This document shows positions 9,804 through 31,923 of a DNA stretch of 64,000 bases, piece by piece (position 1 is the first letter of the stretch; the number at the start of each line of letters is the position of its first letter). The notes under the pieces are model-generated. The model was not told the DNA's origin and did no database searches. It saw only the letters and a list, made by a program, of their open reading frames with translations. Source of the stretch: Diplonema japonicum (taxonomy: Eukaryota; Protista; Euglenozoa: Diplonemea); the NCBI GenBank assembly GCA_964019335.1, contig OZ025725.1:310001-374000 (forward strand), in the 5' to 3' direction. The position numbers and the translations under genes are program-made.

Positions 9804-10234
9804 ATGGATCGCTTGAAAGTGATAGCGTTGGTGGTGGGAATAGTGAGTATGATGGTCTGGATGTTCCAGGTGGTAGCCCTGGCGGACGATAAGGGGTACG
9901 TGGAGTGGAATTCAAGATGCGGCAGTGGCATGATGCTGAACTCTTGTGGGGATAAGTCCCTCAGGGAAAGCTCCTGCAAGGAGGTAGCTGATCACGCCAA
10001 GGCCGCAGCTGCCTTTGGTGTTCTGACTATTCTGCTCCTCTCGGTTACCTGGATCACGCATACCTTGCTGGCTGTTCCTGTTATCAACAAGATGCTGATG
10101 GCAAGAAATGGCTTCAAGCAGTTTACTATGAACCATCTTTGGATTTTGCATCTTGTCGCTTCGCTTTTTCTGTTCATCACGTGGTGCACGCTGACCGGGC
10201 TTTACTATAGAGAGGTATAATATATATATATATA

Positions 10235-10274
<40 letters not shown>

Positions 10275-10507
10275 TATAGTTCTGCGGTGAGAAGATTAAG
10301 GATCTTGCCACGCTTCAGCATGGGTTTGCGTTTCTCATTATAAACAATGTGGTGGAGGTGGCGCTGGCGGTTACCTGCCTTCGGGGGTTGCATATTGGGG
10401 CTTCGGCCAACGCCGGGGAGAAAACCCCTCCTTCAACACCCCCTCCTGCCGACGAGAGGGGGCATACCCCTCAGAAGGCGTACGGAAACCCCTTGGCCTA
10501 TGACTGA
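9804..10507 (+). CDS. Amastin-like tetraspan surface protein; exons 9804-10214, 10280-10507
   Basis: C..C extracellular loop, AAAAFGVL, W....LYYRE|FCG....GFAFLI. Removing GT..AG intron 10215-10279 (phase 0) restores the fourth TM helix. Confidence 0.75.
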
Positions 10508-11529
10508 TTCAGAATCGGTTCTTTTTCTTTTTTTTTTTTTTTTTTTTTCCGTAGTTGTAGTTGCTATTCTTTCTGTCTTCCCCCCCCCCTACCCCCCCTT
10601 TTATTTCAACGTAGTTACCAGACACTTTTCGGGCAAAAAAAAAAATTGGGGCAGAAAAAAAAAGGGGCAAAAAAAAAAAAAAAAAAAAAAACCGGACTTG
10701 ACAGTCAGTTTTTCTTTCTTTTTTTTTTTCTCTTTTTTTTTTTGTAAATAAAAATGGGGGATTCCGGGCACGTACAAACAAACAGCCAGTTCCTCATTTA
10801 AAAAAAAAAAAAAAAAACTGCCCCCCGGGGGGGGGGGGGGGGGGGAGCGAATAACCCATTATTTTAAAACCGAATCTGCCCATCAAAAAAAAAAAACCAC
10901 AAAAAAAAAAAAACATTTCGTTTTTATTCCTACACGCATTAGGAATTTCCCCTTCATAGTATAAAAAGATGTTCCATTTTCTTTTTTTTTTGTCATCTTC
11001 TTTGCTAAAAAGGAGGAGGCGGCACTTGTTGGTTAGGCTTGTACACAACAAGCAAAACAGACTCTTTAGTTCTTTCTGGTAAATAAACCCCTGAGGGATT
11101 TCTTTTTTTTTCTTCTTCTTTTTCTTCTTCCTTCTTTATGACGATTTTTAAAAAAGGATAGAACTTAGTGAGCTGAAGTGGATGCACCTGCTCACTGAAG
11201 CTTTCGTCGAAAAAAAGAGAGAAAACAAAAGGAAAAAGCGATTCTTCCACACATCACCCCCCCCCCCCCCCCCCACGTCAGTCTTTCATATCTGTTCCCC
11301 CCCCCCCTTTTTTTCTTTTTTTTAAAAAAATTGCTTTTTTGTATACTTTTTCTGAAAGATTTCAATTCCGAAATTTTGTTATTCCTCTTTTTTTTAGTTC
11401 TTTCTATGTTCAAAAAAAAAAAAATAAGAAACCTCAGGAAGAGGAGGGGTGTATAATTACAACAACAAAAAAAAAAAAAAAAAAAAAAAAAAAAACAACC
11501 TACAACACACACACAACATTTAAAAAAAA

Positions 11530-11724
11530 ATGAGTAAGCCCCCGGTGATTCTAGACATTGGAACTGTTAACACGAGAGCAGGTACGCATTTTTTTTTTTT
11601 TTTTCTCTTTTTCTTTTTCCTTTCCCCCCCCCAAAAAAAAAGGGAGAGGAGGACAAACTGTACCGGAATGCGTTTTCCCGACATTGGTTGGAGAGGTCAA
11701 CAAACAGGTATCTAATAATTAGAT

Positions 11725-11768
<44 letters not shown>

Positions 11769-12875
11769 CAGCTAGCAACACCGATGATAGGACAAGGCGA
11801 GATGAAGTCACACTTTGTAGGGAAGGCAGCGCTGGATAAAAGATCCCTCCTGAAGATCCGGCAGCCGGTGAACGGCGTCCCCAACGACTACAATGCCTGC
11901 GAAATGGTGGTCCAGCACGCGATGGAGGAGCTCGGGGAGGGCTGCAAGCGGCTGTGCCTAATAGAACCAACCCAGGCCACAATGGAAATCCGAGAAAATC
12001 TCGTAGAATTCGCGATAGAAACCCTAAAATGCGAGGAATTCTGGTTGTTATCAAGCATCCCATGCTCACTCTTCGCCTCCGGTCGAACAACCGGCATCGT
12101 CCTCGAAGCCTCAGAGAGCGCCTCCCACGTAGTTCCCGTTTTAGAAGGCCACGCTCTATCTAGAAGCAAATGGACCACCTCTGAACTCTCAGGTCTGGCG
12201 GTGACCTCTTACATGGTTAATCTCTTGAAGCGAAATGGTAGGTTAGACCGAGATCTGCCGCCTCACATCAACAGGATGATTAAGGAAAAGTTCTCGTATA
12301 CCTCTACCAACATGGTGGATGATAACCACACTGCTGAAACTAGCCCGGATTCCCTGGTTCGGGTTTACGAACTTCCTGACGGTGGGAGCTTGGAACTCTG
12401 TGATGAAAGGTTCAGGTGCTCCGAGTACTTCTTCCACCCATCTTCATGGACTGGTACAGACAAGATACAAGCCATTCACAAGTCCGTCGTCAAAACAATT
12501 ACAGATTGCGATGAAAAGCTTCAAACCAAGCTTTTTCACAATATTGTTGCGTGTGGAGGAGTCTCACTTGGTGTTGGTTTCCAAAGCCGGCTTCAGAAAG
12601 ACATCAACTCGTGGCTGAACGGGTCCGGCGAGGGGAACAAATGGAAGTCCCGGCTTAAGCTCAGCAGCACCGTGAAGCTGGTGGACACCACCCTGCCGCC
12701 GTCCCAGCTTGACCCCACAATCTGCACCCAAGCATGGCGCGGGGCCTCCATTCTCTCACAACTGCCCAGCTTCAACTCCATGAAGATCACCGCCACAGAC
12801 GTCCGAGAGGGTGGAAACGGTGTTGTGCATCGTAACGCCATGGTGCCCCCAAAGAAAATGGATGTGTATTTCTGA
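11530..12875 (+). CDS. Divergent actin / actin-related protein; exons 11530-11581, 11643-11707, 11772-12875
   Basis: Spliced N-terminus VILDIGTVNTRAG|RGGQTVPECVFPTLVGEVNKQ|LATPMIG matches actin subdomain 1; also SLFASGRTTGIVLE, YELPDGG, ERFRCSEYFF, NIVACGG, AWRGASIL. Confidence 0.9.
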
Positions 12876-12991
12876 AACTTTAAAAAAAAAAAAAAAAAAA
12901 AAAAAATCGAGTCTTTCCTTTTTTTTTTTTTTTTTTCTTTTCAAAAAGATTTTTTCTTGACAAAAAAAAAATTCTGGCAACAAAAGGACGT

Positions 12992-14377
12992 ATGTATTAT
13001 GATGCCGACGATGACCTGCCCCCGTCCACTATCAGTGGGACGCCGTACAGGGGTGACAGGAGGGTGTGCGATGTGAGCTGTTCGTCTTCGATAAGCGACA
13101 CCCCGCGGCATGGGTACCCCTCTGCAGGGTTTGCGTCGAGCCAGTTCTCGCTCCCCAGCGACCCTGCCGCGTTGAATGGGTTGCTCGACCAGCTGAAGGG
13201 GCAGTTTCCTAGCATCGAGATCCCTAGGGAGCTTCTCTCGGGGCACAGCGTGCCGACTGAGGGCCTCCTCTCAATGCACAACACACAGCACCACGTGATC
13301 CACTCCCGCAGGTTGGAGTCTTCGATCGACCTCAACTCCCCCCGGCGGGAGCACCCTCTACACTCCCCCCAGCGTGAGCACCCCCTGCACTGTGTACAGC
13401 GTGGTAGCGTTCCTGTTCAACAGGACAGGTCGACTTCACCCGTGCGGGGTGGAAGCCCTCCTTTGCAAGACATTCCTCAGATGTCGATGCATGGCGGTAT
13501 GCATCTTCAACAGGCGTTCCACCCCCCGCCCATGCCAGTGCCGGTTCCCCTTCCTGTCCCTCCTGCGCCTGCACCTTTCCAAGAAGAACCTGAACGTCCT
13601 AAGCAACCTGCGTCGGCGTCGTCCCCACGGCAAGGTTTTTACGACAAGCTCGGGCGGCAGTTGACCGAACTGCTGCTTGAAGCAGGCACGCCCCTTCCTC
13701 GCTTCCCTATGGAGGTCCCTTGCGCTGATTCCACAACACAGACGGCAGAGCAGGTAACACGGATCGCAGCAAGCTCAGAACACCAAGAACTACAGGGTGT
13801 TAATGACATGATGATCCAGAAGGCACGTGCGGCTGCGGAGATGTTTCTGAAGGACTACCAGGACCACAAGAGGGCGCTGTCGGACTCGGAGAGGAAGCTG
13901 AATGTGAGCGAGAATGAGAACCTCGCGCTGCGGTCGCAGCTGGACCTGTCGATGGTTAAGATGATGTCTGCTCAAAAGGAAGTCGACAAGTACGCGTCTT
14001 ACTTCAACATGAGCAAGAGCGGGGCACAGCAAGCTGGAAGCGACTCCGCACAACTGAAAGCACTGCTGCGAAAAATGCAGGAAATGAGCAGAGAGCTCAA
14101 ATCTGCTCACGAAGAAAAATTACTGCTTCTGAGGGAAGAAGAGCAGCGCAGGGAGGACGCCATCAAGCAGGCCGTCGCCGACAGAGACGCCGAGCTAATG
14201 CGCGTAAGGAACCAGCTCAAGGAAAAAAAGAAAATGATAAAGGACATGAAGCTGATGCTGCACTCCTACCTTGCCACGAACGACCCTACAGACGTCAACC
14301 CGAAGATGGCCTTCCTTGACATGATCGCACACGGCGGGCAGAAGTACGCAAGTGTGACCCCTGGGGTCGCTCTGTAA
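12992..14377 (+). CDS. Hypothetical protein, Pro-rich N-half and coiled-coil C-half
   Basis: 461-aa ORF with coding-like composition; no family recognised. Confidence 0.75.
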   Translation: MYYDADDDLPPSTISGTPYRGDRRVCDVSCSSSISDTPRHGYPSAGFASSQFSLPSDPAALNGLLDQLKGQFPSIEIPRELLSGHSVPTEGLLSMHNTQHHVIHSRRLESSIDLNSPRREHPLHSPQREHPLHCVQRGSVPVQQDRSTSPVRGGSPPLQDIPQMSMHGGMHLQQAFHPPPMPVPVPLPVPPAPAPFQEEPERPKQPASASSPRQGFYDKLGRQLTELLLEAGTPLPRFPMEVPCADSTTQTAEQVTRIAASSEHQELQGVNDMMIQKARAAAEMFLKDYQDHKRALSDSERKLNVSENENLALRSQLDLSMVKMMSAQKEVDKYASYFNMSKSGAQQAGSDSAQLKALLRKMQEMSRELKSAHEEKLLLLREEEQRREDAIKQAVADRDAELMRVRNQLKEKKKMIKDMKLMLHSYLATNDPTDVNPKMAFLDMIAHGGQKYASVTPGVAL

Positions 14378-14543
14378 AAAGCCTAAAAAGCCACATTTCT
14401 CCCCCCCCCCCCCCCCCCTAGATTTCTGTTGTTGTCTTTATGTAATATGTACTGTTCCCCTTTTTCGTTGTTTGATAATTTTTTTTTTTCCCCCCTCCAT
14501 ATTCCAGAGTTCTACAGCCATATAAAAAAAAAAAAAAAAGTAG

Positions 14544-14771
14544 ATGTCGGAGTTCGGCGACCGTCCCGAGCAGCTGATCAAGGCCTTTGCTGTCTTTGAT
14601 CACGACAAGTCTGGGAAGGTGTCCGTGGAGGTGTTGAGGCTGGTGCTCACAAAGCTGGGCGACGTTCTGAACGCGGAGGAAATGGACGAGCTAGTCGGAG
14701 AGGCGGACATCCACGGGGAGGGTGTTGTGGATTACGCGCAGTTCGTCCACCAGGTTGTCTTTGCCGCTTAG
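14544..14771 (+). CDS. Small two-EF-hand protein (calmodulin C-lobe / myosin light chain-like)
   Basis: LIKAFAVFDHDKSGKVSVEVL...LGDVLNAEEMDELVGEADIHGEGVVDYAQFV. Confidence 0.85.
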   Translation: MSEFGDRPEQLIKAFAVFDHDKSGKVSVEVLRLVLTKLGDVLNAEEMDELVGEADIHGEGVVDYAQFVHQVVFAA

Positions 14772-14913
14772 AGGAAAAAAAAAAAAAAAAAGAAAGAAAG
14801 AAAAAAAAAGTATCTCCCCCCCCCCCCCTCTCCTGTATGTTTTTTTTTCCAAATATTTTTCTCGAAACGAAAAAAAAAAAAAAAAAAAAAAAATCACCTA
14901 GCAGGACAGATAA

Positions 14914-15531
14914 ATGTCCTTACGCACCCTGCTCCTCAGGAGGGACAGTGGCTTGCAAGGTTTAAAACATGTTGATTCCGATCTCGTGAAAAAATGGGCC
15001 TTGGGTGTCGAGCTGCAGCATCGCAGCGCTGTGCGAGACCTTGAAGAGATGTGGGCGGTTGCCGACAAGGCGGAAAAAGACAGCATCAATGCACAGCAGG
15101 ATGGGAACAGGGCGCAGCTCACGGCAGAAGAGGCTGTAGGGCGGATAGTGATGTACAGCGCGGCCATGATGGAGGAACGGCAAGGGGTTTTTATAGACCA
15201 GGAAGCGGAGTTCAGCGAGCTTCTTGAGCTTCACCTGGGTACGCTGTCTCTCTCCCGAGAGGAGGCAGCGGGAAGAGTCTTCATTGAGTCCTCCTCCGCC
15301 ACTGCCGTGAATTACCTGTGGTCGCGCAGGGCTTCCCTTCACGTGCTTGGGAACATCGAGGTGAGTTCCCAGCTCAGCCAGACCCAGCTGCTTCTCAACA
15401 TCGCCACACTGAAACTGAATCAAATTAGCTGTATCTCGCTGAACAGTGCGGCTATCTCACCTGCCGACATTACCGATCTGCTCTCAAGCGCACGCGGGGA
15501 AAACCCCACCGCCCCTTTCCAGGGGTGTTAA
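14914..15531 (+). CDS. Hypothetical protein
   Basis: 205-aa ORF with coding-like composition and EEAxGR-type helical repeats. Confidence 0.65.
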   Translation: MSLRTLLLRRDSGLQGLKHVDSDLVKKWALGVELQHRSAVRDLEEMWAVADKAEKDSINAQQDGNRAQLTAEEAVGRIVMYSAAMMEERQGVFIDQEAEFSELLELHLGTLSLSREEAAGRVFIESSSATAVNYLWSRRASLHVLGNIEVSSQLSQTQLLLNIATLKLNQISCISLNSAAISPADITDLLSSARGENPTAPFQGC

Positions 15532-15579
15532 AAAAACAAACAAAAAAAAAAGGGAGCAAACCAAACCACTTTACTGTGC

Positions 15580-15606
<27 letters not shown>

Positions 15607-15610
<4 letters not shown>

Positions 15611-17346
15611 TAAAGGACCGGGGGTTTTGCCAAGGACCGTCTATTTATGAACCCGGGAAAAAAAAAATGCGAGAGTTTAACCATAAGAAAGTACACTATA
15701 CCCTTTAAAAAGCACGTGACCCAGGGGGTAAAAAAAAACAATTTATTTTCCATGCAGGGGGGCCTACTTAGAGTTCATACGGGGTCGGGAGAGGAAATGT
15801 ACGACAAAGTACCGGGCATCGCGAGCGACTTTGCTCAACCCACTCGAGGGCGCTTGGGCGGAGGACAGCCTCCCTCACTTTTTTTTTATTCTACAGATGT
15901 CGATTTTCTTCCAACATTGGGTCCTGGCGGACGCTGAAGCCCTTGAGGATTTTTTTTTTCAAGCGTCCCCAGAACTGTCGGTATTTTATCATGTCAGGGT
16001 AGTCATTTTTTGTATGAAAAATCTCAAAGCACTCCGGGCACAGGGCAACATTGCACGTTTTGCAGGTGTAAAATTGTTTTTTTTTTTTTTTTGATTTTTG
16101 GCACAGCCTTGAGGTGAATTTCATACTATAGGCAAAGTCGTAGAGATTAAAGGCAAAATTATAGGCAAAGCGGAAAAGGTTAACACGGGTTTAGTACGGC
16201 CGTGCCGCAAGAGGAACCGGATGCTGTCCGAACTCTGCCGCATAACTCTGTCATGGCGTGAGATTTGTTTGCTGGCCTCCTTTTTCGTTTTTCTGCCCAC
16301 TGTCGTCTTCCGGAGTTGAACCGTGCCCACGGGGTTGTATTTTTCTGTTGCGCTGAACCTCCGATAGCATGCATACCACTCAAAAGAGAGCAGAAGAACT
16401 GGTAATTAGAATAAAGATTATCCATCGCAACCCAGTGACCACGATGCTCGAACTGTCGCAGAAGACGTGGTACCGTGTCCTTTGGGTCCCCACCAGGGTA
16501 AATTCTAATGTTAAGCACGCACCCCGACGAGTACACCTTAAAGCCATAGCGCTTGCGTTTAGCTGGTTGAAAAACGCTGTGCTTAAGGCGGGAGAAGGAG
16601 CGAATCAATGCTCAGCCCTTGACCGGGGGTGGTATGCAGCTTTCTAGCTGGGGGGGTCCGGGAATGCAGCATCTCCACTTTTGATAGTGTCCCGTTGCCC
16701 TGTGAGCCAAAGTGGACACAACAAGAAGATATAGAGCAATGTGGCGCGGCCCAGGACATGGCCTATGTAAGGCGTTGTAATCTCCTTCCTTTGTAGACCA
16801 GTAGTCCTTGACGCCCACCCTGCAGACTTTGTCCATCAAGGCGGGCAGAACCCAGACGGCGATCCAGGTGTTCAGTTGTGCCTCGTCTGCGTCGAATGTG
16901 GTGCCCTTGGATGTGGCATACACCTTTGAACAGCATAATGGACCTCAGCAAGCTGTTTGTGATAAACAAACTGAAAAGTTGTAGCCTATCCATGTTGCTG
17001 TTCGATGTTGCTGGACCCCTGTACCCATGTCATTTCTTGGCCGGTGTACGGTTGATATTTGTCCCCCAACGCACACCACCCATCTGAGGTGGTGCTGGAG
17101 TTGGAAGAAGCTCTTCAGAAGGTCCTCAGAACCTGCTCTCAAGTACCAAGTACAAAAGGACACCAAGCAACCCCCTTGGGGACGGGTTTTGGTGTTTGTT
17201 CTTCGCGCAAAAGGGTATTTCAAATAAAAAAGAAATCGCGGAACAATGGGTATTAGTAAAGTCCAGGGGCTGTGTGGCACAAAAAGTGTCACATAGAAAA
17301 GATAATTTTTCTTATGGACACATATGTCCTCATGGTCCTTTAGTGG
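15607..17346 (-). mobile_element. Decayed piggyBac transposon
   Basis: TTAA|CCACTAAAGGACC ... GGTCCTTTAGTGG|TTAA (13-bp TIR, TTAA TSD). Minus-strand transposase fragments KRYGFKVY, WVAMDNLYS, VKDYWS and C-terminal CKTCNVALCPECFEIFH are split by stops and frameshifts. Confidence 0.9.
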
Positions 17347-17419
17347 TTAATCAAATTACCGATTTCACATTTTCTTTTTCACAGGGAAAGAAAAAAAAAA
17401 AAAAAAAAAAAAAAAAGAA

Positions 17420-19555
17420 ATGCGAAGGAAAAGCCCAGATGAGATCCCAAAAGAGTTCTTACGGACAAAGGTGGATAGGTGGGGTCTGTCGAGCAAAGCA
17501 CTAGGCAGGGGCGCGGGGGGTGAGGTCGTCCTCGGCATGGACACCGAGAGCGGCGGCATGGTGGCCGTGAAAAAACTCATGATCGCAGGGCTCAGCGGAG
17601 AACGAAGCGTGAAGCTGCTCTCCGAGATAGAACTCCTAAAGGGCCTGGCCCACGAGAACATCGTCCAGTACATCGGCTCGAAACGCACACAGCGCAACCT
17701 ATACGTAGTAATGGGGTACATGGACAAGGGGAGCGTGGCCGACCTTGTAAAAAAATATAAAAAACTCCCAGAGGACCTGGCAATGAGAATTTTCAGAGAA
17801 GCTCTTCACGGTCTAGACTACCTCCACAGAGAGGGAATTGTACACCGTGACATAAAAGGCGGGAACATTTTATGCTGCACAACAGGAGGCGTTCGCCTGG
17901 CTGACTTCGGTGTCTCCGAGCTTCGCGTTCCTGAAAACGACAGCATAGATGTTGCAGGCACCCCATACTGGATGGCACCAGAGGTCGTCGAGGTAAAAAG
18001 CGCATGTCCAGGATCTGATATATGGGGCCTCGGATGTACATTGTGCGAAATGTTAACAGGACACCCTCCTTACGGAAAGCTGCCGCCTTACACTGCTTTG
18101 TATCGGGTGGTACAGGACGACTGCCCACCGCTTCCTCCGTTTGCAACATTGTCGATAAAAAACCTGTTGAAACAGTGTTTTATAAAAGATGTTAAAGTAA
18201 GGCCCACGGCGCCCATGTTGCTTCTGGACCGTGCGGTGTACTCCTTGTCTGTCGGGCAGGTCGATTTCACAATTTTGGAGGCGTTCCACGAAACATCAAA
18301 AATATTAAATAAAACACACGGTGCATACCCAACCACAACAGACGTTCTGCGGTATATTAAAATCTCGTCAAAGGATGATCTTGCCCGTGTGAACCCCATC
18401 CCGGAACTTGTGAAACTGATACACAGTGAGACAGACGAGGATGTACTTGAAGAATCGGTAATGTTGCTTGGTAAACTGTGGCGGGACCCGTCTCGTTCTT
18501 CTGCAGGTGTGGAGTACTGGTGTGATGATGCCTTTGTGTCCACGTGCTGCGCGATTATCGAGAAGGTTAAAATGTCCCCCGAGGCGCAAGCCATCTCTGT
18601 TTCCCTTCTTATAGACCTTCTTGACGGGCTTCCTCACTGGTCCGTCGCGTTGCGCCGTGAGCTTCTCTTCTCCCTCTCATCTTACGTGCCCATCGAGGTT
18701 GTGTATAACCCCTCGTGGATCACGCCCATTTTAGATATTCTCTCTTCTTCCTTCGCTGTCTCGCCGCCTGACTATGAGATTCTCCTTGAGAGGCTTTTCA
18801 ATGCGTATCGGTCGTGTGGGGACGTGTGGTGTATCACGTCGTTGGTGCAGCTTATTCGGTTAGACCCTGTCAAAGCGTGCTTGGTTGTGAAGGACATCGT
18901 TTGGTGCTTGACCTGCAAGAAGGAGGACAACACAACTGACCCCGGTTTCACCCTTGCGATGCTCCCTGTGCTGTTGGAGATTTGTTTGGTGGTGGAGGAT
19001 GAGGTATTTATAATTTAAGAAAAAAAAAAAAAAAAAATTGCAGAATTTGAAAACGGCATGTTTCAAGACATACATTGCTCTGCTTAAAGACAACACAAAA
19101 CCTGAGGTTCAGGAAATGTGTCTCATGCATTTGGCCGCGTGGTATGTGTTTTTTTTTGGGGGGGGAAAAAAAATGGTCTCCCAAAAAAAAACAGGACTTT
19201 AAGTCGCGACCCTTACCTAGAGAAAAACCTTGTGGGTGAATTGCGGGGTATTACAGAGGTTATGTGCCAGTGCGGGGGCTATGGGGATCCTTTTCATGAG
19301 GAAGTCATGCTGAGACACTTTCTGAAGCTTCTGAAGACGGATTTTGTAAAGGAGAAATGGATGCTCGGCGTCTCAGAGGAGGTTTTGAGCTGGCTGCGAC
19401 AGTTATTGCTTGGTACCAGACCGTCGTTGGTCATGCTCGCCTTGTCCCTGTTGCAGGTTATCTTGGACATTGGTTCGATAGAGGACAAGAAGGCCCCAGC
19501 ACTTTATTCTGCCACTAAGAAATTGTCGAAAAGCAGGTTTGCTGGGGGGAATCGA

Positions 19556-19594
<39 letters not shown>

Positions 19595-19689
19595 GGAACC
19601 CCGAAATCGCTAAGCCTTCAATTGCTCTCCTTGCCTCCGTTTGGCCGCTTAAACCTAAAAAGCGGTTTGCTTACATCAGGTTTAAAAAG

Positions 19690-19692
<3 letters not shown>
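17420..19692 (+). CDS. STE-group (Cdc15/SepA-like) Ser/Thr kinase with helical-repeat C-terminus; exons 17420-19003, 19044-19141, 19195-19536, 19596-19692
   Basis: GRGAGG, VAVKK, HRDIKGGN, DFG, GTPYWMAPE, ALYRVVQDDCPPLP. Three GT..AG introns (40, 53, 59 nt) keep the frame open to TGA at 19690. Confidence 0.85.
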
Positions 19693-19766
<74 letters not shown>

Positions 19767-20423
19767 GCTATAGATTTTTTTTTTCTCTTTCCGTTTTGTC
19801 TTTTCGTTCTCCCTCTCCCCCCCCCCCCGATTCTCTTATTATTATTATTTTCTTTTGTCTTTTCGTTCTCCTTGTTTTTTTTTTTTTTTGTGTGGTAGAA
19901 GAAAGAAAAGAAAAAGAAATACTATTTTAAGGAAAAGAAGAAGGGGGGGGGGGGGGGGGAGGAAGGGAAGAGAGAAAAAAAAATTGTTGCACGTCTTTCC
20001 TCCCTCTCCCTGCTTCCCCTCTCCAGGGACCAGTTAGAGTTGGTACCCCCCTAAGTTACCCCCCCCCCCCCCCCCCCGTTCTTTCACTTCTGAAGACTGT
20101 CTCCGAAAATCTGAAGGACCTTATGCCTTTCCCCACACTCTCCCCCCCTTTTTTTTTGTTATACCGATGCCAGTGCTCTCACCCTTCTTGGGTGCACTAC
20201 TGGGGATCGCTTTGGACGACCAAGCAAAAAAAAAAAGGGAAAGAAAGAAGGAAAAAAAAAAAAAAAACATACGTTTCGAGCCTGGGCTTTCAAGAGGGGA
20301 GGGAGAGGAAAGGGGTCTACGGCCCATCTTAAAAACCCAACCCTCTTTCTGAATCTTGGCTCTTATGTCCCATTTTGGGGCAACTACACATTTAAAACGA
20401 AATAACTTGCATTTTTTTTTCTT

Positions 20424-20457
<34 letters not shown>

Positions 20458-21620: not shown

Positions 21621-21985
21621 AAAATAAAAAAAAAAATAAAAAAAAAAAAAAAAAGCAATTTCTAGCTACCTTCTCGTTATTCTCAGCTGTTTCTATCTAT
21701 CTACTTCCAAAAAAAAGGAAACCCCCCCCCCCCCCCCCCCACCCCTTGGTACCAATATATTCTGGGAATTCTTAAAAAAAGAACAGAAAAAAGGCAAAAA
21801 AGAAAAAGAGGGAAGAAAAAGAAAAAGAAAAAGAAAAAGAAAAAAACACGTTTTTCAGAACAGAAAAGAAGAAGGAAAAACCCGAAGAAACGAAATAGAA
21901 AAAAAAGTAAAAATAAAAAAAAAACAGCACACCCTTTCTTTAAAAAAAAAAATCGACTTGCTTTTGATGTTTTTTCCCTCAGACT

Positions 21986-22018
<33 letters not shown>

Positions 22019-22289
22019 GATATAAATTTGACTTTTCTTTTTTGACATTGCCATTTTTTTTTTTTTTTTTTGATAGAAATAAGTTACCGTATTTGTACTT
22101 GTGAAACGGAAAAAGTTCCAAAAAAAATCCGTTTTTTTTTTTTTTTTTTTTTTTTTTCCTTTTTTTTTGGTCTTCGAAATCGAAAAGATTCCGCAATTTA
22201 ATTCTGTTTTCAAACATTTTCCGTTTCTTATTGAGTCCATCTGCGGTCATTCGTTTTCTTTCTCTTTCCAAAATGTTTCATTCAGCAAA

Positions 22290-22338
<49 letters not shown>

Positions 22339-23190
22339 GTCGCGAGATTTAAAAAAGAACAAAAAGCCCAATCCCAACCCCAATCTAAAAGGGGGTGTCG
22401 TGAGTGCTGGGAAGGCAGGCTTCTGATACAACTAATAAAAAAGAATAGGCAGAAAAAAGAACAAACAAAAATTGGGGGGGGGGGAAGGGAGAGAGGGGGA
22501 ACAGGGAGTGTCTTTTTTTTCCTTGTTGTCCCCCCCCTTTTTTTTCCCCCCCTCTCTCTTTTATTTTTGCAAAAAAAAAAAAAAAAAAGAGAGAACTGAC
22601 TTTTCATTGCGCACAATGATGTACTCGCTCTTTCCATTCTCGTGGCACACCCAACAACTAGTTTCTTTTCTTCCCCCCCCCCTTTTTTTAAACCGTCACG
22701 TGAACTTTTTCTTTTTCTTTTTTTGAACAAATATGTGGAGTGAAAATATTACTCTATCTGGTGTTGGCCGGTGGGAGGCAATTTTCTAGCTGACGGATTT
22801 GATGTTTAGTCTAGTCTATCTTCAAGAAACAAGAGCGGATCTAGAAATCAAGATTTTTTTCTCTCTTCGATTCTCTTGCTCTTCTTTTGTTAATATACCC
22901 TTCGACCTTCTTTTTTTTTTTTTTTTTTTTTTTTTAATCTGGTTGCGGCAATAGTTTAAAAAAAAAGAAGAAAAAAAGGGGGGGGGGGGGACTTAATACC
23001 CACCCCCCCCCCACCCTTCCTCTCTCTCTCTCCATCCACATAAAAAAAAACAAAAAAAAAAAAAACACCACACTCTTTCCCATCCCCCCACCCACCCCCC
23101 TTCTGGCACCCTATTATTCTTCTTGCTTTTTTTTTTTTTTCTTCGTCTTTTGTTTTTCTTACAAATTTTGTCAAAAAAAAAAAAAAAAAA

Positions 23191-24252
23191 ATGCTACTTT
23201 GCGCAGCCATTCTCACAAGCGTCTCCCTCTCAGTCTCAGGGGTCACGGAGAACAACGTGACGGGAGCGCTCCGCGTGATGCAAGGGTACTACAAAAAGGA
23301 CAAGGGCGAGTGGGGCGACGGCTCCTGGTGGCACTCCGCCAACGCCCTTGAAGCCCTCTGCAACGTGGTCCTCTACACAAACAACACGGAGTACTTCGAT
23401 ACGGTACAAAACACATGGGACCGCACGCAGAACTCTTACAAAAAACACAAAACATCTGAAGGCTACGATGACATTCTGTGGTGGGGCCTCGCCTGGTCTC
23501 GTGCTGCACACCTCACCAACAACACCACCTACCTAACACGGTCGGAAGGCTACTACTCCGAAGCGAACGAAACCTGGGACACAACATGTGGAGGAGGGGT
23601 ATGGTGGAACCGCGACAAAACCTATAAAAACGCCATCACCAACGAACTGTACCTCACCCTCGCCACAGAGCTCTACAAAGCCACAAACAAACGACAGTAT
23701 CTCACAGACGCACACCGCGAATGGAACTGGTTTGTAAAATCCAAAATCTACGGCCACCCATCCTCCCTTATCGTCGACGGCCTCAGCCCTGCATGCGATG
23801 GAACAGGTTCTCTGTGGACATATAATCAAGGCGTTTTGTTAGGCGGTCTTCTGAACCTTTACAAGCTTACCGGTGACATCACGTACTTAACCCATGCTTT
23901 TAAGAAGACGGATAAGGTCCTGGAGGCTATGACTGCGCAGGGTATTCTTCAGGAGCCTGCGCTCGGTGGTGGGAAGACGTCTGATGCCGAGCAGTTTAAA
24001 GGGGTTTTCGCGCGTTACGCGGGGTACCTTCTTCGGGGGAGCCACCCCGTGCCACTGGAGCTGAGCGGGCACTACTCTCGCCTGAAGAGTTTCGTTCTTG
24101 AAAACGCAGGGTCGGTGCTTGAAAACGACGTCACGGGGAACGGCAGGTTCGGATTTTACTGGGAAGGCCCGCCTGACAAACCATCGGACCCCGACTACAT
24201 CACGCACTGCTCCGGGCTTGACATTGTCACGGCGGCGTTCAACCTTCCGTGA
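23191..24252 (+). CDS. Secreted glycoside hydrolase family 76 (alpha-1,6-mannanase-like)
   Basis: Signal peptide; WWHSAN, YDDILWWGLAW (catalytic DD), CGGGVWW, YKNAITNELY, WTYNQGV, FKGVFARY; intronless. Confidence 0.9.
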   Translation: MLLCAAILTSVSLSVSGVTENNVTGALRVMQGYYKKDKGEWGDGSWWHSANALEALCNVVLYTNNTEYFDTVQNTWDRTQNSYKKHKTSEGYDDILWWGLAWSRAAHLTNNTTYLTRSEGYYSEANETWDTTCGGGVWWNRDKTYKNAITNELYLTLATELYKATNKRQYLTDAHREWNWFVKSKIYGHPSSLIVDGLSPACDGTGSLWTYNQGVLLGGLLNLYKLTGDITYLTHAFKKTDKVLEAMTAQGILQEPALGGGKTSDAEQFKGVFARYAGYLLRGSHPVPLELSGHYSRLKSFVLENAGSVLENDVTGNGRFGFYWEGPPDKPSDPDYITHCSGLDIVTAAFNLP

Positions 24253-24289
24253 AAAAAAAAATTTTTTTTTTCTTTCTGTTTATATTTTT

Positions 24290-25026
24290 TTATTTCACTC
24301 TTCAGAAATTAATTCTTCACGCACTGGGGGGCCCATTACTTCACGCTAAATCTCATTACTTCACGGTGAAATAATGGCCTGTTTTCCGTGAAGTAATAGG
24401 GGGTTTCCGTTAAATAATATGCCTCGGTAGGCCAATTTTTGCCTCGGTTCGGTTCCAGTGGGGCTACTTTTTCCTCTCAGTTTGCTATTTCCCCCCAGGT
24501 TCAGCTCAATTGGCCAACTTTTGCCTCGGCTCAGTTCCAAGTTGGACTACTTTTTCCACCCAATTTGCCCACTTTTGGCTAGGCCTTGTTCCCAGTTTCT
24601 GTGGGTAACTCTTCTGTGGGTAAGGGTAACTTAGTCAGCTTACCCAAGCACCCCAAAAGACTTCAAAATACCGAAGCAGCAGAAAAAAAGGAGCCAGCGG
24701 CCGCGCCAGGTATGGGAAGGCCTGATTAGAGATGGTGACAGTGGCAATGCCAGCGACAGCGGCAGCTCTTAGTCAACAAAAGGAGGAAAAACAACATGTA
24801 TTGTAACCTTTGTATCCCCTCTCTAATTGTACCCTTGTCACCCTGTTGTGCCCCTCGTGGTGAAGTAATTTCAGAGTGTCGTGAAATAAAACCACTTACC
24901 TACCGCCAAGTAATGCTTTACCGACCTCTCGGTTCCGCATTTTACCATCTCGGGCCCTCGACGGTAAAATGCGGAACCTCGAGGTAACGGTAAAGTCATT
25001 ACTTGTTGGCAGTAAATAGCTATTAT
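24290..25026. mobile_element. Non-coding repeat element with many GTGAA(A/G)TAA(T/A) motifs and an internal ~80-bp degenerate tandem duplication
   Basis: ATTACTTCACG x2, GGTGAAATAAT, CGTGAAGTAAT, GTGAAATAAA; duplicated GGCCAA(T/C)TTTTGCCTCGG..CTACTTTTTCC; related sequence at 20666-20811 and 54885-55133. Confidence 0.55.
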
Positions 25027-25132
25027 TTTTTTGAAAACGTTTCCTTTTTTTTTTTTTTTTTTTGCTCCCCCAACTAATTTTCACAAGAAAAAAAAAATAG
25101 GAGGGAGTGGGGCAAAAAAAAAAAAAATAACA

Positions 25133-25933
25133 ATGCCTTCGGAATGGGAAACAGTTTGCAGGGAGGTGCAAGGGGAGTACAGCAACTGGGCAATGGTGGC
25201 CTTTGTCCTGACGGTATCTCATGCGGTCGTCGTGTGGGGAACCGTTTTGTACTACAAAACGCTGACAGGGATGCCCAGCATGCACAAATACAAGGTGAGG
25301 CTCCCAGAAGGGAACAGGACCAACAAGGAAAGCGCCCTCAGACACGCGGTCATCGACGCCATCATCGCCAGCTTCGTTACGGTTCCCATTGCGGCCTCTT
25401 TGGTAGGATGGCTCTTTGGTGCAGACGTGTGTGAGGAATTACCATCTTGGGAACAAACAGCCTTGCAACTGTGCTTTCATATGGTTTTCACTGACACGAC
25501 GTTCTACTGGGCACACCGGACTCTGCACACAAAGTGGTTTTACGCAAGAATTCATAAACAGCATCATGAATTCAAGACTCTTGACCCGATTTGTGCGGAG
25601 TACGACCACCCTGTTGAAGACTTGATCAACGTGTTGTCTACAGCAGGTGGGCCCATCCTCTTGGATTCTCACCCTTGCGTGCTTATGGTCCATGTTAGCT
25701 TACGGTTGATGCAGAGCATTGATGCCCATTCTGGTTACTCCCTCCCCTTGCCTTACTCCGTGTGGAACGTAGGGCCCTTCTGGTCGTCCTCCGTGCGTCA
25801 CAGCTACCACCATGGTGTAAATGTTGGGAACTACGGGGACTGGTTCCCTTTCTGGGACTGGCTCTGCGGCACCGACAAATCATGGAGAGATTTCTACTTT
25901 CAGAACAATGATAAATCTGTGAAAACCGAATAA
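25133..25933 (+). CDS. Fatty acid hydroxylase superfamily, sterol C4-methyl oxidase (ERG25-like)
   Basis: His boxes YWAHRTLH, IHKQHHEF, DAHSGY, HSYHH; NYG..F..WDWLCGTD. Confidence 0.85.
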   Translation: MPSEWETVCREVQGEYSNWAMVAFVLTVSHAVVVWGTVLYYKTLTGMPSMHKYKVRLPEGNRTNKESALRHAVIDAIIASFVTVPIAASLVGWLFGADVCEELPSWEQTALQLCFHMVFTDTTFYWAHRTLHTKWFYARIHKQHHEFKTLDPICAEYDHPVEDLINVLSTAGGPILLDSHPCVLMVHVSLRLMQSIDAHSGYSLPLPYSVWNVGPFWSSSVRHSYHHGVNVGNYGDWFPFWDWLCGTDKSWRDFYFQNNDKSVKTE

Positions 25934-26301
25934 AAATGGGGGGTGTCCACACTACGTTGTAAAATGCAGAATTCTTTTTTTTTTTTCGCGTTACACAAAG
26001 CTATCCACTAACGGGGGGGGGGCTTTTTTTTGTTTGTGTGAGAGTTCTTCTGAAAGGGGAAGGGGGAGAAAATCCAAAATGCAGAATTTCCGCGTTGGGT
26101 ACTTGTTGAAGCTTCTCACACGGCCTCTCCCTTCTCTTTTCTTCCCCCCCCCTTTTTTTTGCTCTCTATTCCCTCAAGGCTACTCGTGTCTATTTTGTTC
26201 AAAAAAAGACTTTTCTCGTTCTCCACGACACAAAAGAAAAGAAAGAAAAAGGAAGTTCACGCACTGGGGTGTACTCCTGCCCTCGTCCATACTCTCGGCT
26301 T

Positions 26302-26345
<44 letters not shown>

Positions 26346-26412
26346 TAGCAAACCATGTGAGTGATCGGCAACCTAAGATGCTATGATAGGCCTCCCCCTC
26401 TCTTTCTCTCTT

Positions 26413-26444
<32 letters not shown>

Positions 26445-26453
26445 CTTTTTTAA

Positions 26454-28245
26454 CCATCTACCAACGAGCGTCTTTATAGAGACGATTTGAAAAAAAATCT
26501 TTTGCGCAAAGGGCTTTCAATGCAATACAGCTCGGCCACTTCTCGCATCCGGGGTCCTGCGCGGAAAATATGAAAAATATAAACTAAATGCTGCCCTAAC
26601 TTAACAAGAAAAAGAAAAAAGAAAAAAAAACGCCAGCCCAAATTTACCCTTAAAAATCACTTCAAAAAAGGGTGCCCAGAAAGAGGCCGGAAGAGGAGGG
26701 TATGAGTGATGGTAGCACTGATGGCTCATCCCTATTATGCAATTTTGGTACGAACAGTGATTCTGATACGAATTCGACCGATTCCGAGTCACAGCAGGGT
26801 GATTGGACGGCAAAGCCGGAGCGGTTGGAAGGCATCCGGTTTCGTGAAGATCGGAATCCTTGTGGACCCTGTTTTGACATCAGAGGCTCAACGACATTCC
26901 ATATATTCTCCCAAATGCTCGCCCCAAACGTTATTTGGGTCATAATTTCGAACAATGTGGCAAATGCGGCTAAAAAAGGTGTTTCCCTGGATCTCAATGC
27001 TGCTTCTTTGCATACCTTCTTAGGTGTCCTTTTGTCGATGGACTTGGATATCATGCCAGATTATTCTGACTACTGGCGCGCTGGCTCCACGTCTCTCAAC
27101 CACACCCCTGGGTACGCTGCTGTCATGTCAAGAGACCGCTTTTTGACTATTCTGGGAAATCTGTGTTTCCACAGCGAAACAAACAAGCGTGCTGACTTCT
27201 ACCTATCGCAAAGGCCTCCCGGAGATCACGGATGCAAAGAAGCGAGGCCGCAAGCCCAAGGACACGCATCCTGTGGCGACACCCAGTTCCACCAGCACGT
27301 GAGCATCCTTTGCACCACAACGTGGCATGACATCAAGCCTGTGCGCTTTCTGTCGACGTTGGATGTTCTGGTGAAGTCAAATTTGACGTGTCGGCCAAAA
27401 GAGAATGAAAGCCGGAATGGACATCCCACCAAGTGCATATTTACAACACCGCAATGGGCGGAACCGACGCTGGGTGACGCTGTGACAAAACGCCATAAAC
27501 GCACCCTTATGACTTCGAAGTGGCCCCTGAAAGTATTTTCGTACTTGTTAGATAGATCTCTGGCAAATGCTTGGCTTGTTTGGAAAGAAGCATTGCCCCC
27601 CAACACCCTGAGTACGAACGACAGTGGATTCACGCCTTTCAAAGAGGCAGTCATCGAAGGGCTACTAGGGAGGCAGTCTAAACAACAGCTAAAGTCAACT
27701 ACAGAGCAGGCTGCCCCAATACCATGCCCCGAAACACAGAACGAGTGCCCTGAGACCCCAATGCACCTCGATAGTACCTTCTGGGACCATTTCCCCGAAA
27801 AAGTAGTGCAACATGCGGTGCAAGCATGGCAAGTCGAAATGACCCCAGTTCCAGTGTTCAACCTGCTTGGTACAACTTTGCATGACTCCGTGCTTCAAAG
27901 ACTACCACCTTGCCGGGGATACCCCCCAGAAACCCCTCTCGGGGTCAAAAAAGAAGTCCCCCAGCCCTGGGGCACGTACGAACCGCGTCAAGAAGGCCTT
28001 AAATAGCTTTTTACAGAATTTTACAGTCGATTTTTTTTGACTTGTTTTTGTACCCCCTCTCGGGCACTTCAGGAACGATATTTTTGACAATGCTGTGAGG
28101 GGCCCTGCTGTGGGCACCCTCTCTCTAGAATTGGGACATCTGGAGGCATTTCCGGGGGCATATAGCCCCGGCGTTGCGCTAGAATAGCTTTTTTTGAAGT
28201 TTTGAAAATTTACCCCCTGGTGGGCAAAAATGGTCCGTTGGTAGA

Positions 28246-28248
<3 letters not shown>
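26454..28248 (+). mobile_element. Internally deleted piggyBac transposon
   Basis: TTAA|CCATCTACCAACG ... CGTTGGTAGATGG|TTAA. ORF 26672-28006 retains FLGVLLSM..DYW, MSRDRF, WHDIKPVRFLST and KWPLKVFSYLLD..LANAW but lacks the DDE core. The Cys-rich tail (CSTCLVQLCMTPCFKDYH) is in another frame. Confidence 0.9.
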
Positions 28249-28283
<35 letters not shown>

Positions 28284-28336
28284 AAACCTCGCCTTTTTTA
28301 AAAAGGGAACAAAACAAAAAAACAAAAAACAAAAAA

Positions 28337-29212
28337 ATGATCACCATAACGCTCCCCTTAATCGGGCTGGCGCTTTGCGGGATGCAGGAATGGGAAGCGG
28401 AGACCTATAAAAAAAACGAAACAGGTGAGATATACGCCTCGCAAGAAGGTGCAACAGTACAAGAGGTGGCAAAGGACGGTGTAAGATCTATTTCAGAGAA
28501 CGGCCTGCTGAAAGTGAAGGACGCCGTGGGTGACGCCAACTCGTGCAAGGCACTGGGGGACCTCATCGATAGGCTCCAACCCAGGATGGAACCAAAGCAC
28601 GCAAACCACCACCACAACATCGCTGTGGAACTTCTACCAGAGGTGCGTGACGTGGTTTACAGGGTGATAGAAAGAAACTATAATTTCCTTTCATCCCTTC
28701 TCACGGAAGACGCGGGTTTGGTAGAACTGGCCATGATGGTGAACGACCCTGGAGCAGCATATCAAAAATGGCACGCTGACACCGTTGCAAGCCCGAAGGT
28801 AGCAAAACTTTTTTCGTTTTTCATCGCACTAGACGAGATATCGCTTGACATGGGCCCTACTGCACTCGTCCCTCGTACCCATACGCAGGATTTTATTGAC
28901 ATTTGTAACAAGGAGGTTACCCGCACGAAGAAAGCAGTATGTGCCGAGAGCTTCGCACCTCTCTCCAAAATCGGGGCCACCATGTCGCCTGGGGACATGA
29001 CTGTCATGGACTCCACACTGCAGCATCGGGCTAATGAAAATTATTCGTCGAGGCGCAGGCGGATCGTTTATTTTTCGCTTGCCGGACCGGGTGTGAAACC
29101 TGATGGTTCCACATACACCCTTCTACCTGGGTACTCTGGGCATATTCTCAAGGAGTACAAGACATGGCACACTGCTGATGCCCGTCTTGGTGGCGGAGGT
29201 GAGGAGTTCTAA
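28337..29212 (+). CDS. PhyH-like 2OG-Fe(II) dioxygenase with signal peptide
   Basis: QKWHAD (HxD), FIALDEISLDMGPT.LVPRTH, GDMTVMDSTLQHRANENYS.RRR. Confidence 0.85.
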   Translation: MITITLPLIGLALCGMQEWEAETYKKNETGEIYASQEGATVQEVAKDGVRSISENGLLKVKDAVGDANSCKALGDLIDRLQPRMEPKHANHHHNIAVELLPEVRDVVYRVIERNYNFLSSLLTEDAGLVELAMMVNDPGAAYQKWHADTVASPKVAKLFSFFIALDEISLDMGPTALVPRTHTQDFIDICNKEVTRTKKAVCAESFAPLSKIGATMSPGDMTVMDSTLQHRANENYSSRRRRIVYFSLAGPGVKPDGSTYTLLPGYSGHILKEYKTWHTADARLGGGGEEF

Positions 29213-29321
29213 AAAAAGGGAAAAGAAAAAAAGAAAAGAAAAAAATTCTTTTTTTTTTTTTTTTTGTTTGTAGTTTTTATTTCCGTATTAACGAATTTTT
29301 TTTTTTTTTTTTGCCTATCTG

Positions 29322-29359
<38 letters not shown>

Positions 29360-29758
29360 GTTTTTTGAAAATTGTTGTCAAAAGAAGAAGAGAAAAAAAA
29401 AAAAGAAAATGTTGGGCAAAATAAAAAAGCCCGCGTTTTTACAAAAAAAAAAAAAAAAGAGAGAGAGAGAGAGAGAGAAAACTATGCTCCTTTATTAGGA
29501 AAAAAGGTTTTTTTTTTCTCTCTTTTTTTCTTTTTTTTTTTGTAAAACCGGTATGACGCAAACAAAAACTTTGCCAACTCTTTTTTTTTCCCCTCGAAGT
29601 TTTAAGAGAAAAAGAAAGAAAGAAAAAAAAAAAAAAAAATTCAAAAAGAAAAAAAGAAAACGCCTGAATATAGTTATAAATATCTTTTGGCCCGTCAAAA
29701 AAAAAAAAAAAAAAAAAAAAAAGAAAAGCTGCGCGAAAAAAAAAAAAAAAAAAAAAAA

Positions 29759-31923
29759 ATGCTGAAAACCATAGAGAGGTGCACGGAGGAGCACCCCGCA
29801 ACGCATCTCGGCGGTGTTGGATACCCCAGCAACAGGGCAGTGGGCATAGGGACGCTAGTAGATTACCTGGACCCCATCATGAACATAGAAGAGGTTCGAA
29901 AAGAACTGGTCAAGGGAACCGTCAAAACAAGACAACTGCCCTTAGTCCCGTACGCAGGCCTCACACGGGTGGTGTTCATGAAAAGAGGTTCCATGGACTG
30001 GATGGCCCGCCACCCCGAGGCCGGCGACAAGTTCGGCAGCACAAAGGAAGGCGAGGCCTTCATCCTCCGCGCCAACAGCGGCGCCATGGTGATGGAAAAA
30101 ACCGGCGATGACACTTTCAAGTCAGGCGGCAGAATGCACTGCTTTGACATATGGCTGAAGGACCCTAACATCTCAACCCACACGGCGCCTCTCGTCGACA
30201 CTTACAAATCACACGAAATGCCCACCAAGCAAGGCCCAGGCTGGACCGCCACCGTCATAGCCGGTGTCTACAGCGACAAGGACAACCGTCCTGGCGTGGA
30301 CCTAGGCCCCACGCGTATCATCGATTTCTGCATCCTCGGGAGGAAAGGCCTCGTGTACAAAGTACCCAGCAACTACAATGTCGTTGTTTATGTGTACGAG
30401 GGCGAGCTCGAGTTCCAGAACAGCATGCAGATCAAGCGGCAGGGTACTGTCGTCGTCTTCGAACGCAAGGGAGGTGATGTCATCGAGGCATGGGCAAAAG
30501 GCGGTGATGCAGGATCTGAAGCAAGGTTCCTGCTAGTGGCCTCGGAACCTCTCGGTGAAGGATTCGAACGCAGCGAAGAAGTACCCTCGATAGTGGGGAT
30601 GAACACACAGACCGTCACAGACTTCTGTAGATCGGAAGGCTTCGTTGACGGTGTTGACGAACACGCCCTGGCACTCAAACAGCTGGAAGAAGAACAAGCG
30701 GAACACCTAGACCTCTCACACTTCTCACCCACCTCGCGTGACGATGACCGCAGGAGGTCATCCAGCGTCAACTACACAGCACAAGACCTCGCGACCCCCA
30801 TGGAGCCGCGCAGGGTCACCACCAGAGAACGCGGCGTCGCATCGCAGCGTTCAGTGACATCACCTAAAGAACCCATCAACCTGAAAGGCCGTGGGAAGGT
30901 GGCCACTATGGAGGATATGCGGAAGAAAAGGTCTCAGAAAGAGGATCCATTAGAGGCCACCGTGACATACACAGGAGGTGTGGGGCTGGGAAGCTCATCG
31001 CGAGCTGGCTCGCCTTACCACAGGAAGAGGAACTCGGGAGGGTTCAGTTCAAACACAACAGCCACCACGTCCCCGACATCCCCTGTTCTGTCGCCGTCTG
31101 CGTCGCCCGGAAGGTTTAGAAGGATCCCATCTGTCGTGGCACCACCATCTGATGCATTAAGCTTTTCAGCGAGGAGCTTCAAACTGTCAGAAAGCACGAG
31201 TTCGCTGTCCTCGAAGACGAGGACGAAGACGGAACCTGGAAGGGTCTCATTCTCAGAGATACCTGTGCCGCAGGACGTGCGCAGCCCCTCTAGAAGGCGG
31301 GCTTCGTGCGATACCAGCCCCGAGCGCAAGAAGACAGAAGAGCCGCGTCGGCGGTTTTCTTACGCACCCACTGCATCTGCGCACGATGACGGCATGGCAC
31401 CACCGCCTGTGAGATTTAAGATTAAAGGGTCGTCCTACGAGCTGAAGGAGAGGCTTATCAATCTGGTAAAGCTGAAGAACGAAGGGACGCCCAATCTAAA
31501 TAGCGCCATTGCTGAGACGCAGGTACAGCTGGACAAGGCACGGGAGAGGGAGGCGCTGACGGATAAGAGGTACCGAAGGGAGGGAAAAAAAAGAAAAAAA
31601 TACAGAGACCTTGCGGAAATGGAGATAGAGATGCAGCGGTACGAGAAGGAGTGGAGAGGGTACCACCACTACTGGGCGACGCATCTGAATAAGATGTACT
31701 CTGCGATACAAGAGCGGCCCACTGCGGAACTGAAGAAAGAGTACCGGGTTAAGTCAGCAGATTTTCAGAAACAGGTACTTAAAAAAAAAAAAAAAAAACA
31801 CACACACAGCTTTCTGAATACCAGAAGCGTCGGAAGGTGTACGAATCGATGTGTGGCTCGCTTAAGGACCCTATGTCCTCTGCCTCTTCGAGCTCTTCTG
31901 TGGGGCCGAATGTTTTGTTCTAA
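29759..31923 (+). CDS. Pirin-like bicupin + Ser-rich linker + coiled-coil protein; introns 31775-31809 and probably 31570-31605
   Basis: DYLDPIM, FDIWLKDP, VIAGVY, YNVVVYVYEGE, ARFLLVASEPLGE; last exon LSEYQKRRKVY is homologous to that of the paralog. Confidence 0.8.

What the first reader, a model, noticed from the sequence alone, without database searches (positions are those of the whole stretch)
10215..31809. Systematic class of tiny poly(A)-filled cis introns
Seen: introns 10215-10279, 11708-11771, 19004-19043, 19537-19595 and 31775-31809 are mostly poly(A) up to within 1-12 nt of the AG; 11582-11642 and 19142-19194 end in an A-run + (AC)AG. Each restores a reading frame, and those in amastin, actin and pirin restore recognisable protein homology. 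Poly(T) introns coexist (35553, 35707, 44467, 45466). Inference: acceptors lacking pyrimidine tracts might shield cis introns from SL trans-splicing and coupled polyadenylation. Oligo-dT priming on them would also mislead annotation.
Basis: partly seen in the sequence, partly recalled or inferred. Interest (0 to 1): 0.75.

Follow-up and report, generated by a model that had tools for sequence, protein, structure and literature searches.

The report
Poly(A)-filled short introns of Diplonema
These short introns of the marine flagellate Diplonema japonicum are real, and about half of those in this stretch end in a run of A instead of the usual pyrimidine tract, a trait already published for the species; they are likely ordinary spliceosomal introns filled with the same A and T runs as nearby noncoding DNA rather than a shield against leader splicing.

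Summary
All 7 introns are GT-AG at the stated coordinates and are spliced. Transcript-derived proteins labelled Diplonema japonicum match the spliced amastin and pirin models exactly, a D. ambulator protein selects both actin junctions, and RNA-like contigs fit the three kinase junctions. The trait is published: Thakur et al. 2025 (PMC12621601) report 'atypical poly(A) tracts' at D. japonicum 3' splice sites. Shielding from SL trans-splicing is weakly supported. A-runs lie mostly between genes (50 of 57 runs of 15 or more) and before start codons (23 of 28 genes). Paralogous pirin introns at one position are A-filled in one gene and T-filled in the other. Three likely SL acceptors are also A-rich next to the AG. 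One point keeps a milder version alive: those acceptors carry a pyrimidine tract 42-68 nt upstream, which the six pure A-run introns scanned lack. SL mis-splicing was not measured. The scan's earlier notes hold nothing on this trait. Verdict: already known; modest added detail.

The parts
10215..10279 (+). A-type intron (A35) in amastin gene 9804-10506
   Evidence: spliced model identical to P0121; X8 contig length fits removal
11582..11642 (+). mixed intron (T/C tract, then A-run) in actin-like gene 11530-12875
   Evidence: best of 9 open GT-AG alternatives against P0001; X8 contig length fits
11708..11771 (+). A-type intron (A37) in actin-like gene
   Evidence: best of 22 open alternatives against P0001; X8 contig length fits
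19004..19043 (+). A-type intron (A18) in kinase gene 17420-19630
   Evidence: X8 record 31 leaves the genome after 19003, and its 97 intervening letters plus one shared G equal the 98-nt next exon
19142..19194 (+). mixed intron (T9, G8, A9) predicted to fold into a 17-bp stem joining its ends
   Evidence: joint listed in X2 and X8; fold -19.9 kcal/mol, z -4.98
19537..19595 (+). A-type intron (A32) in kinase gene
   Evidence: pieces of X1, X2 and X8 stop at 19537 while DNA-like X7 runs on into the intron
   Evidence: only GT-AG pair in the scanned range whose removal gives an exact match to P0124
31775..31809 (+). A-type intron (A18, 35 nt) in the C-terminal tail of pirin1 (29759-31924)
   Evidence: exact match to P0124; same position and phase as pirin2 intron 35707
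35553..35619 (+). T-type intron (T49) in pirin2
   Evidence: GT-AG, restores frame and alignment to pirin1 tail; no read test
35707..35747 (+). T-type intron in pirin2, positional counterpart of A-type 31775
   Evidence: both after KQ, phase 0, in the paralog alignment
44467..44543 (+). T-type intron in superoxide dismutase-like gene 1
   Evidence: GT-AG, restores frame
45466..45520 (+). T-type intron in superoxide dismutase-like gene 2
   Evidence: GT-AG, restores frame
51380..51422 (+). pyrimidine-type intron (43 nt); identical copy at 57388-57430
   Evidence: GT-AG, restores the C-terminus shared with the paralog at 46146
52811..52857 (+).
   Evidence: GT-AG, removes a poly-lysine read-through and extends the frame; no read or homolog test
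9761..9762 (+). likely SL trans-splice acceptor AG of amastin; last 20 nt 50% A, 21-nt pyrimidine tract 57 nt upstream
   Evidence: X8 contig ends on this G with 22 unlaid letters while X7 runs through; composition; letters not seen
12985..12986 (+). likely SL acceptor AG of gene 12992; last 20 nt 60% A, 31-nt pyrimidine tract 42 nt upstream
   Evidence: as above
14903..14904 (+). likely SL acceptor AG of gene 14914, 9 nt after a 24-A run; 22-nt pyrimidine tract 68 nt upstream
   Evidence: as above

Best explanation
These are short GT-AG introns of Diplonema japonicum that are cut out of the mRNA, likely by the ordinary U2-type spliceosome recognising both ends across 35-77 nt without needing a pyrimidine tract beside the AG. 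Shown: boundaries, removal, A/T composition. Inferred: U1 binds the GTA-type 5' end, an adenosine in or near the run serves as branch point (no consensus needed), and the first suitably distant AG after the run is used. Also inferred: the runs are slippage-prone filler of the kind that fills the species' noncoding DNA, with a T-first, A-last order shared by introns and by the DNA before start codons. The filler base is likely interchangeable, so A-type introns are one end of a series, not a separate functional class.
For: Removal shown or well supported for 7 of 7. 11 of 14 start GTA and 12 of 14 end YAG. A-type introns have no end-pairing fold (0 to -2.2 kcal/mol). 50 of 57 A-runs and 42 of 48 T-runs of 15 nt or more are in plain intergenic DNA. 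23 of 28 genes have an A-run within 40 nt of the ATG; the last 20 nt before ATG are 69% A and T peaks 61-80 nt upstream. T lies 5' of A in 11 of the 12 introns whose core holds T. One paralogous intron position is A-filled in pirin1 and T-filled in pirin2. PMC12621601 reports 98.33% canonical introns, A as commonest base in the tract region, U2-type snRNAs and U2AF1/2 in D. japonicum.
Against: A-rich acceptors are enriched about 3.7-fold over intergenic AGs (7 of 14 against 116 of 850), and 6 of 14 introns were 60% A or more against a mean of 1.1 in matched intergenic samples (p 0.0004), so pure neutral filler is not enough: something favours A next to the AG. The A/T swap rests on one paralog pair. 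Branch points were not mapped. The sample is one window.
Confidence: 0.68

Rival explanations
1. Graded shielding. A distal pyrimidine tract marks SL trans-splice acceptors, so cis introns that lack any tract would be poor SL acceptors and would not trigger coupled polyadenylation; selection would favour A-filled introns for that reason.
For: All 3 likely SL acceptors have a pyrimidine tract of 21-31 nt lying 42-68 nt upstream, and the 6 pure A-run introns scanned have none of 9 nt or more within 100 nt. In Schistosoma mansoni, intron acceptors that take SL are U-richer, in longer introns and have longer tracts (PMC5832876 passages). In T. brucei, purines in the tract harm trans-splicing and splicing dictates polyadenylation (PMC9639853 passages).
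Against: 6 of the 13 short introns scanned carry tracts of 20-49 nt within 8-17 nt of the AG and remain cis introns. The likely SL acceptors are themselves 50-65% A beside the AG. 286 of 891 intergenic AGs have such a tract upstream anyway, so 3 of 3 is only modest. The main X8 contig over the actin gene fits cis-splicing at the T-rich 11582 acceptor. Paralog A/T swap.
Confidence: 0.17
2. The A-run is a positive 3' splice-site signal read by a poly(A)-binding protein or an altered U2AF2, replacing the pyrimidine tract at both cis and trans acceptors.
For: Enrichment of A directly before the AG in introns and at the three likely SL acceptors; the species-wide A bias reported in PMC12621601.
Against: 5 of 14 introns have pyrimidine-rich ends. 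An A-rich GT..AG stretch in coding sequence (14204-14242) is not removed in the X8 contig that spans it without gaps. The same A bias is strongest before ATG, where splicing is not involved. No such protein was looked for here.
Confidence: 0.13
3. The introns are assembly or homopolymer artefacts, or frameshifted pseudogene lesions.
For: Exact run lengths cannot be confirmed from contigs, which break in long runs.
Against: DNA-like X7 runs through intron 19142 without gaps, and RNA-like runs skip it. Transcript-derived proteins match the spliced models exactly.
Confidence: 0.02

Closest known systems
[quoted passage not shown] 2025, RNA, PMC12621601; parts 1-4 of 8 and passages read, supplements not available)
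   Same: Same species label (P0121, P0124 are EukProt D. japonicum records), GT-AG ends, GTA(T) 5' end, CAG 3' end, short length, A commonest before the AG (pooled 56% here), rare YTRAY motif.
   Different: In the parts read, the paper gives pooled logos only. It does not separate A-type from T-type introns, compare them with intergenic DNA or SL acceptors, or note paralog swaps. Median length is 41 nt there and 54 nt in this window's 14.
Cis versus trans acceptor competition in Schistosoma mansoni (PMC5832876, passages read)
   Same: One spliceosome handles cis and SL splicing; intron acceptors with less U and shorter introns take SL less often, which is the shielding logic.
   Different: There the difference is graded U content, not poly(A) filling; measured there, unmeasured here.
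Euglena gracilis conventional introns and outrons (PMC11170887, passages read)
   Same: A euglenozoan with a species-specific tract base shared by cis introns and outrons, as suggested here by three likely SL acceptors.
   Different: The tract is C-rich, still a pyrimidine; introns average about 500 nt.
Kinetoplastid trans-splice acceptors (PMC9639853, PMC11613528, passages read)
   Same: No branch-point consensus; any A near the tract is used.
   Different: There the branch A lies upstream of the tract and the tract is required. Here the tract, when present, lies upstream of an A-rich spacer and is absent from half the cis introns.

Membership tests
U2-type spliceosomal intron | GT at 5' end and AG at 3' end | tested here: met
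   14 of 14 distinct short introns; 7 of 7 of the finding
U2-type spliceosomal intron | precise removal from mature mRNA | tested here: met
   listed joint for 19142; exact transcript-derived proteins for 10215, 31570, 31775; contig arithmetic and homology for the other four. T-type introns and 52811 not read-tested
U2-type spliceosomal intron | extended 5' consensus and YAG | tested here: met
   GTA in 11 of 14, YAG in 12 of 14
U2-type spliceosomal intron | pyrimidine tract next to the AG (typical; already reported as replaced by A in this species) | tested here: not met
   7 of 14 have 15 or more A in the last 20 nt; this is the variant trait described in PMC12621601
U2-type spliceosomal intron | branch-point motif YTRAY | tested here: inconclusive
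   2 of the 14 introns scanned, one too near the 5' end; 13.9% genome-wide in PMC12621601
U2-type spliceosomal intron | lariat formation and snRNP dependence | not testable with these tools
   needs lariat sequencing or knock-down; U2-type snRNAs and U2AF reported present
Nonconventional euglenozoan intron | non-GT-AG ends | tested here: not met
   all GT-AG
Nonconventional euglenozoan intron | stable pairing of intron ends | tested here: not met
   A-type introns fold at 0 to -2.2 kcal/mol; only mixed intron 19142 pairs strongly

The most novel reading that the evidence does not exclude
D. japonicum uses a rearranged acceptor code: the stretch beside the AG is A-rich at both cis and trans acceptors, and a pyrimidine tract displaced 40-70 nt upstream is what licenses SL trans-splicing. 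Pure poly(A) cis introns would then be spliced without U2AF2-tract contact and be intrinsically resistant to SL addition and premature polyadenylation, giving a natural genome-wide A-versus-T experiment on how one spliceosome tells cis from trans acceptors.
Probability: 0.2. Interest if true: 0.6.

Novelty: already known. Interest (0 to 1): 0.3.

Why it matters
The core trait is in print, so its surprise value is limited. What the window adds is testable detail. A-type and T-type introns coexist in one gene and swap between paralogs. Likely SL acceptors share the A-rich end. In-frame purine-rich introns can hide as poly-lysine coding sequence (31570-31605). If SL mis-addition differs between A-type and T-type acceptors, this species would give a direct test of how cis and trans acceptors are told apart in an intron-rich euglenozoan. 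Practically, short-read contigs break in these runs, so annotations from short-read assemblies may undercount long-run introns (inference).

Tried and rejected
No whole genome is held for this window, so no genome-wide intron count was possible. No RNA holder was listed on record; run types were judged from behaviour. No read data were obtained for the pirin or T-type introns, and SL letters were not seen in the tables returned. A metagenome scan for relatives of the actin-like gene gave 58 pattern matches and no confirmed relative, so intron sequences of other species could not be compared. A search for kinase C-terminal homologs gave 1 weak, uninformative hit. Rfam at gathering thresholds found 0 families in the window; 14 weak matches behind the GILT gene were far below gathering scores and none was SECIS. 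Candidate hidden intron 14204-14242 was rejected: X8 record 28 spans it without gaps. Nonconventional-intron and artefact readings were rejected (see membership and rivals). Exact look-up of 10 single-exon ORFs found 5 in the collection, all from EukProt; the 5 misses say nothing. Earlier scan notes on introns: 0 hits.
Full report
Organism. The window is gene-dense eukaryotic DNA with 28 genes read on the + strand and noncoding DNA rich in homopolymer runs. The closest named relatives of the actin-like protein are EukProt records of Diplonema ambulator (64%) and Flectonema neradi (50%). Two EukProt records labelled Diplonema japonicum equal spliced models from this window residue for residue. 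I therefore treat the species as D. japonicum.

Observation. All 7 introns are GT-AG at the stated coordinates and restore frames. Amastin: the spliced model is identical to P0121, and Pfam Amastin passes its cut-off only for the spliced protein (31.4 bits against 15.8 for exon 1). Actin-like: the stated pairs rank first among 9 and 22 open GT-AG alternatives scored against P0001. Pirin1: P0124 matches exactly when 31775-31809 and an unnoticed in-frame intron 31570-31605 are both removed; both lie in the tail, outside the pirin domains. Kinase: I laid 4 of the 8 listed runs on 9701-19700. Their library types are not on record. X7 behaves as DNA and runs through intron 19142 without gaps. X8 and X2 behave as RNA and show the joint that skips it. 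X8 record 31 leaves the genome after 19003 and holds 97 letters plus one shared G for the 98-nt exon, and pieces of X1, X2 and X8 stop at 19537 where X7 goes on. Only that one intron joint appears in the rows shown, the tool drops rows at repeats, and most rows were not shown, so the other junctions are inferred from lengths. X1, a diverged relative, also has a low-depth contig that keeps intron 19142 (DNA or retention).

Catalogue and chance. I found 14 distinct short introns (35-77 nt, median 54), leaving out one identical duplicate (57388) and one 763-nt intron. By their last 20 nt, 7 are A-type, 5 pyrimidine-type and 2 mixed. A-rich acceptors are enriched over intergenic AGs (7 of 14 against 116 of 850, p 0.0015) but only marginally over AGs just before start codons (24 of 108, p 0.045). 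Transposon-like stretches, set by eye and by depth, were left out of the background. The set may be biased towards introns that are easy to see.

Surroundings. The runs are not special to introns. Of 57 A-runs of 15 nt or more, 50 are in plain intergenic DNA, 6 in introns and 1 in transposon-like DNA; of 48 T-runs, 42, 4 and 2. 23 of 28 genes have an A-run within 40 nt of the ATG. The last 20 nt before ATG are 69% A, and T peaks 61-80 nt upstream. Inside introns T lies 5' of A in 11 of the 12 with T in the core. A T-first, A-last order thus precedes both start codons and cis acceptors. The pirin paralogs share an intron at one position and phase, A18-filled in pirin1 and T-filled in pirin2.

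Trans acceptors. Three X8 contigs end on the G of an AG 41, 5 and 9 nt before a start codon, each with 22 unlaid letters, where X7 continues. About 23-24 leader letters are expected if contigs are built from 31-letter words and branch at a shared leader (the word length and a leader ending in G are my assumptions). I read these as likely SL joints; the letters were not seen. Against this, two contigs of the diverged runs (X1 record 3, X2 record 13) also have 22 unlaid letters at places that are not an AG. The three acceptors are 50-65% A in their last 20 nt, and one follows a 24-A run. Each has a pyrimidine tract of 21-31 nt lying 42-68 nt upstream, which the 6 pure A-run introns scanned lack; 286 of 891 intergenic AGs have one too.

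Mechanism. Most likely (0.68) these are U2-type introns recognised across their short length, with a branch adenosine taken from the A-rich end and no need for an adjacent tract. The run is interchangeable filler, with some preference for A beside the AG. Boundaries, removal and composition are shown; spliceosome use, branch choice and slippage origin are inferred. Graded shielding (0.17) has precedent in S. mansoni and fits the distal tracts. But 6 of the 13 short introns scanned carry long tracts, and SL mis-addition was not measured. A dedicated poly(A) reader (0.13) is untested.

Known work. Thakur et al. 2025 (PMC12621601; parts 1-4 of 8 and passages read) analysed 10,131 D. japonicum introns. 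[quoted passage not shown] Its supplements could not be seen and may hold further motif detail. For PMC5832876, PMC11170887, PMC9639853, PMC11613528 and PMC10161547 I read passages only. Seven searches (listings only, apart from the papers named) showed no paper that compares cis and trans acceptors or tests shielding in a diplonemid; the library is incomplete.

Verdict. Real, confirmed and already known at species level; interest 0.3. The open and testable part is whether a distal pyrimidine tract separates trans from cis acceptors in this species (probability 0.2, interest 0.6 if true).

Noticed in passing
window 36441-37115: GILT-family thiol reductase gene with an in-frame TGA at 36528-36530 where the first cysteine of a CxxC-like motif would stand; Pfam GILT E 5e-19 when read through. 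Candidate selenoprotein; no SECIS match found.
   Followed up: partly
window 19142-19194: GT-AG intron whose T9/G8 and C/A9 runs are predicted to pair into a 17-bp stem joining its ends (-19.9 kcal/mol, z -4.98); a low-depth contig of run X1 keeps it. Resembles the end-pairing of euglenid intermediate introns (recalled).
   Followed up: partly
upstream of start codons, whole window: 23 of 28 genes have an A-run of 8 or more within 40 nt of the ATG, and the last 20 nt are 69% A; possibly a translation-related 5' UTR feature.
   Followed up: partly
window 47787-48549: 763-nt last intron of a sphingosine-phosphate-lyase-like gene (name recalled) holds pieces 94% and 77% identical to the repeat at 40420-41455; paralogs have a 43-nt intron at the same site. 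Likely a mobile-element insertion into a short intron.
   Followed up: partly
window 31570-31605: In-frame, stop-free 36-nt purine-rich intron that reads as RYRREGKKRKKY-type coding sequence if unspliced; such introns are invisible to frame logic.
   Followed up: yes
window 26702-28006: 434-aa ORF with a DDE_Tnp_1_7 transposase match (E 4.6e-19).
   Followed up: no
window 15600-17330: High-depth, polymorphic repeat between genes (depth up to about 550); likely a decayed mobile element.
   Followed up: no
window 59690-64000: GC-rich stretch with a long CAA repeat and broken ORFs, likely a non-LTR retrotransposon (not tested).
   Followed up: no
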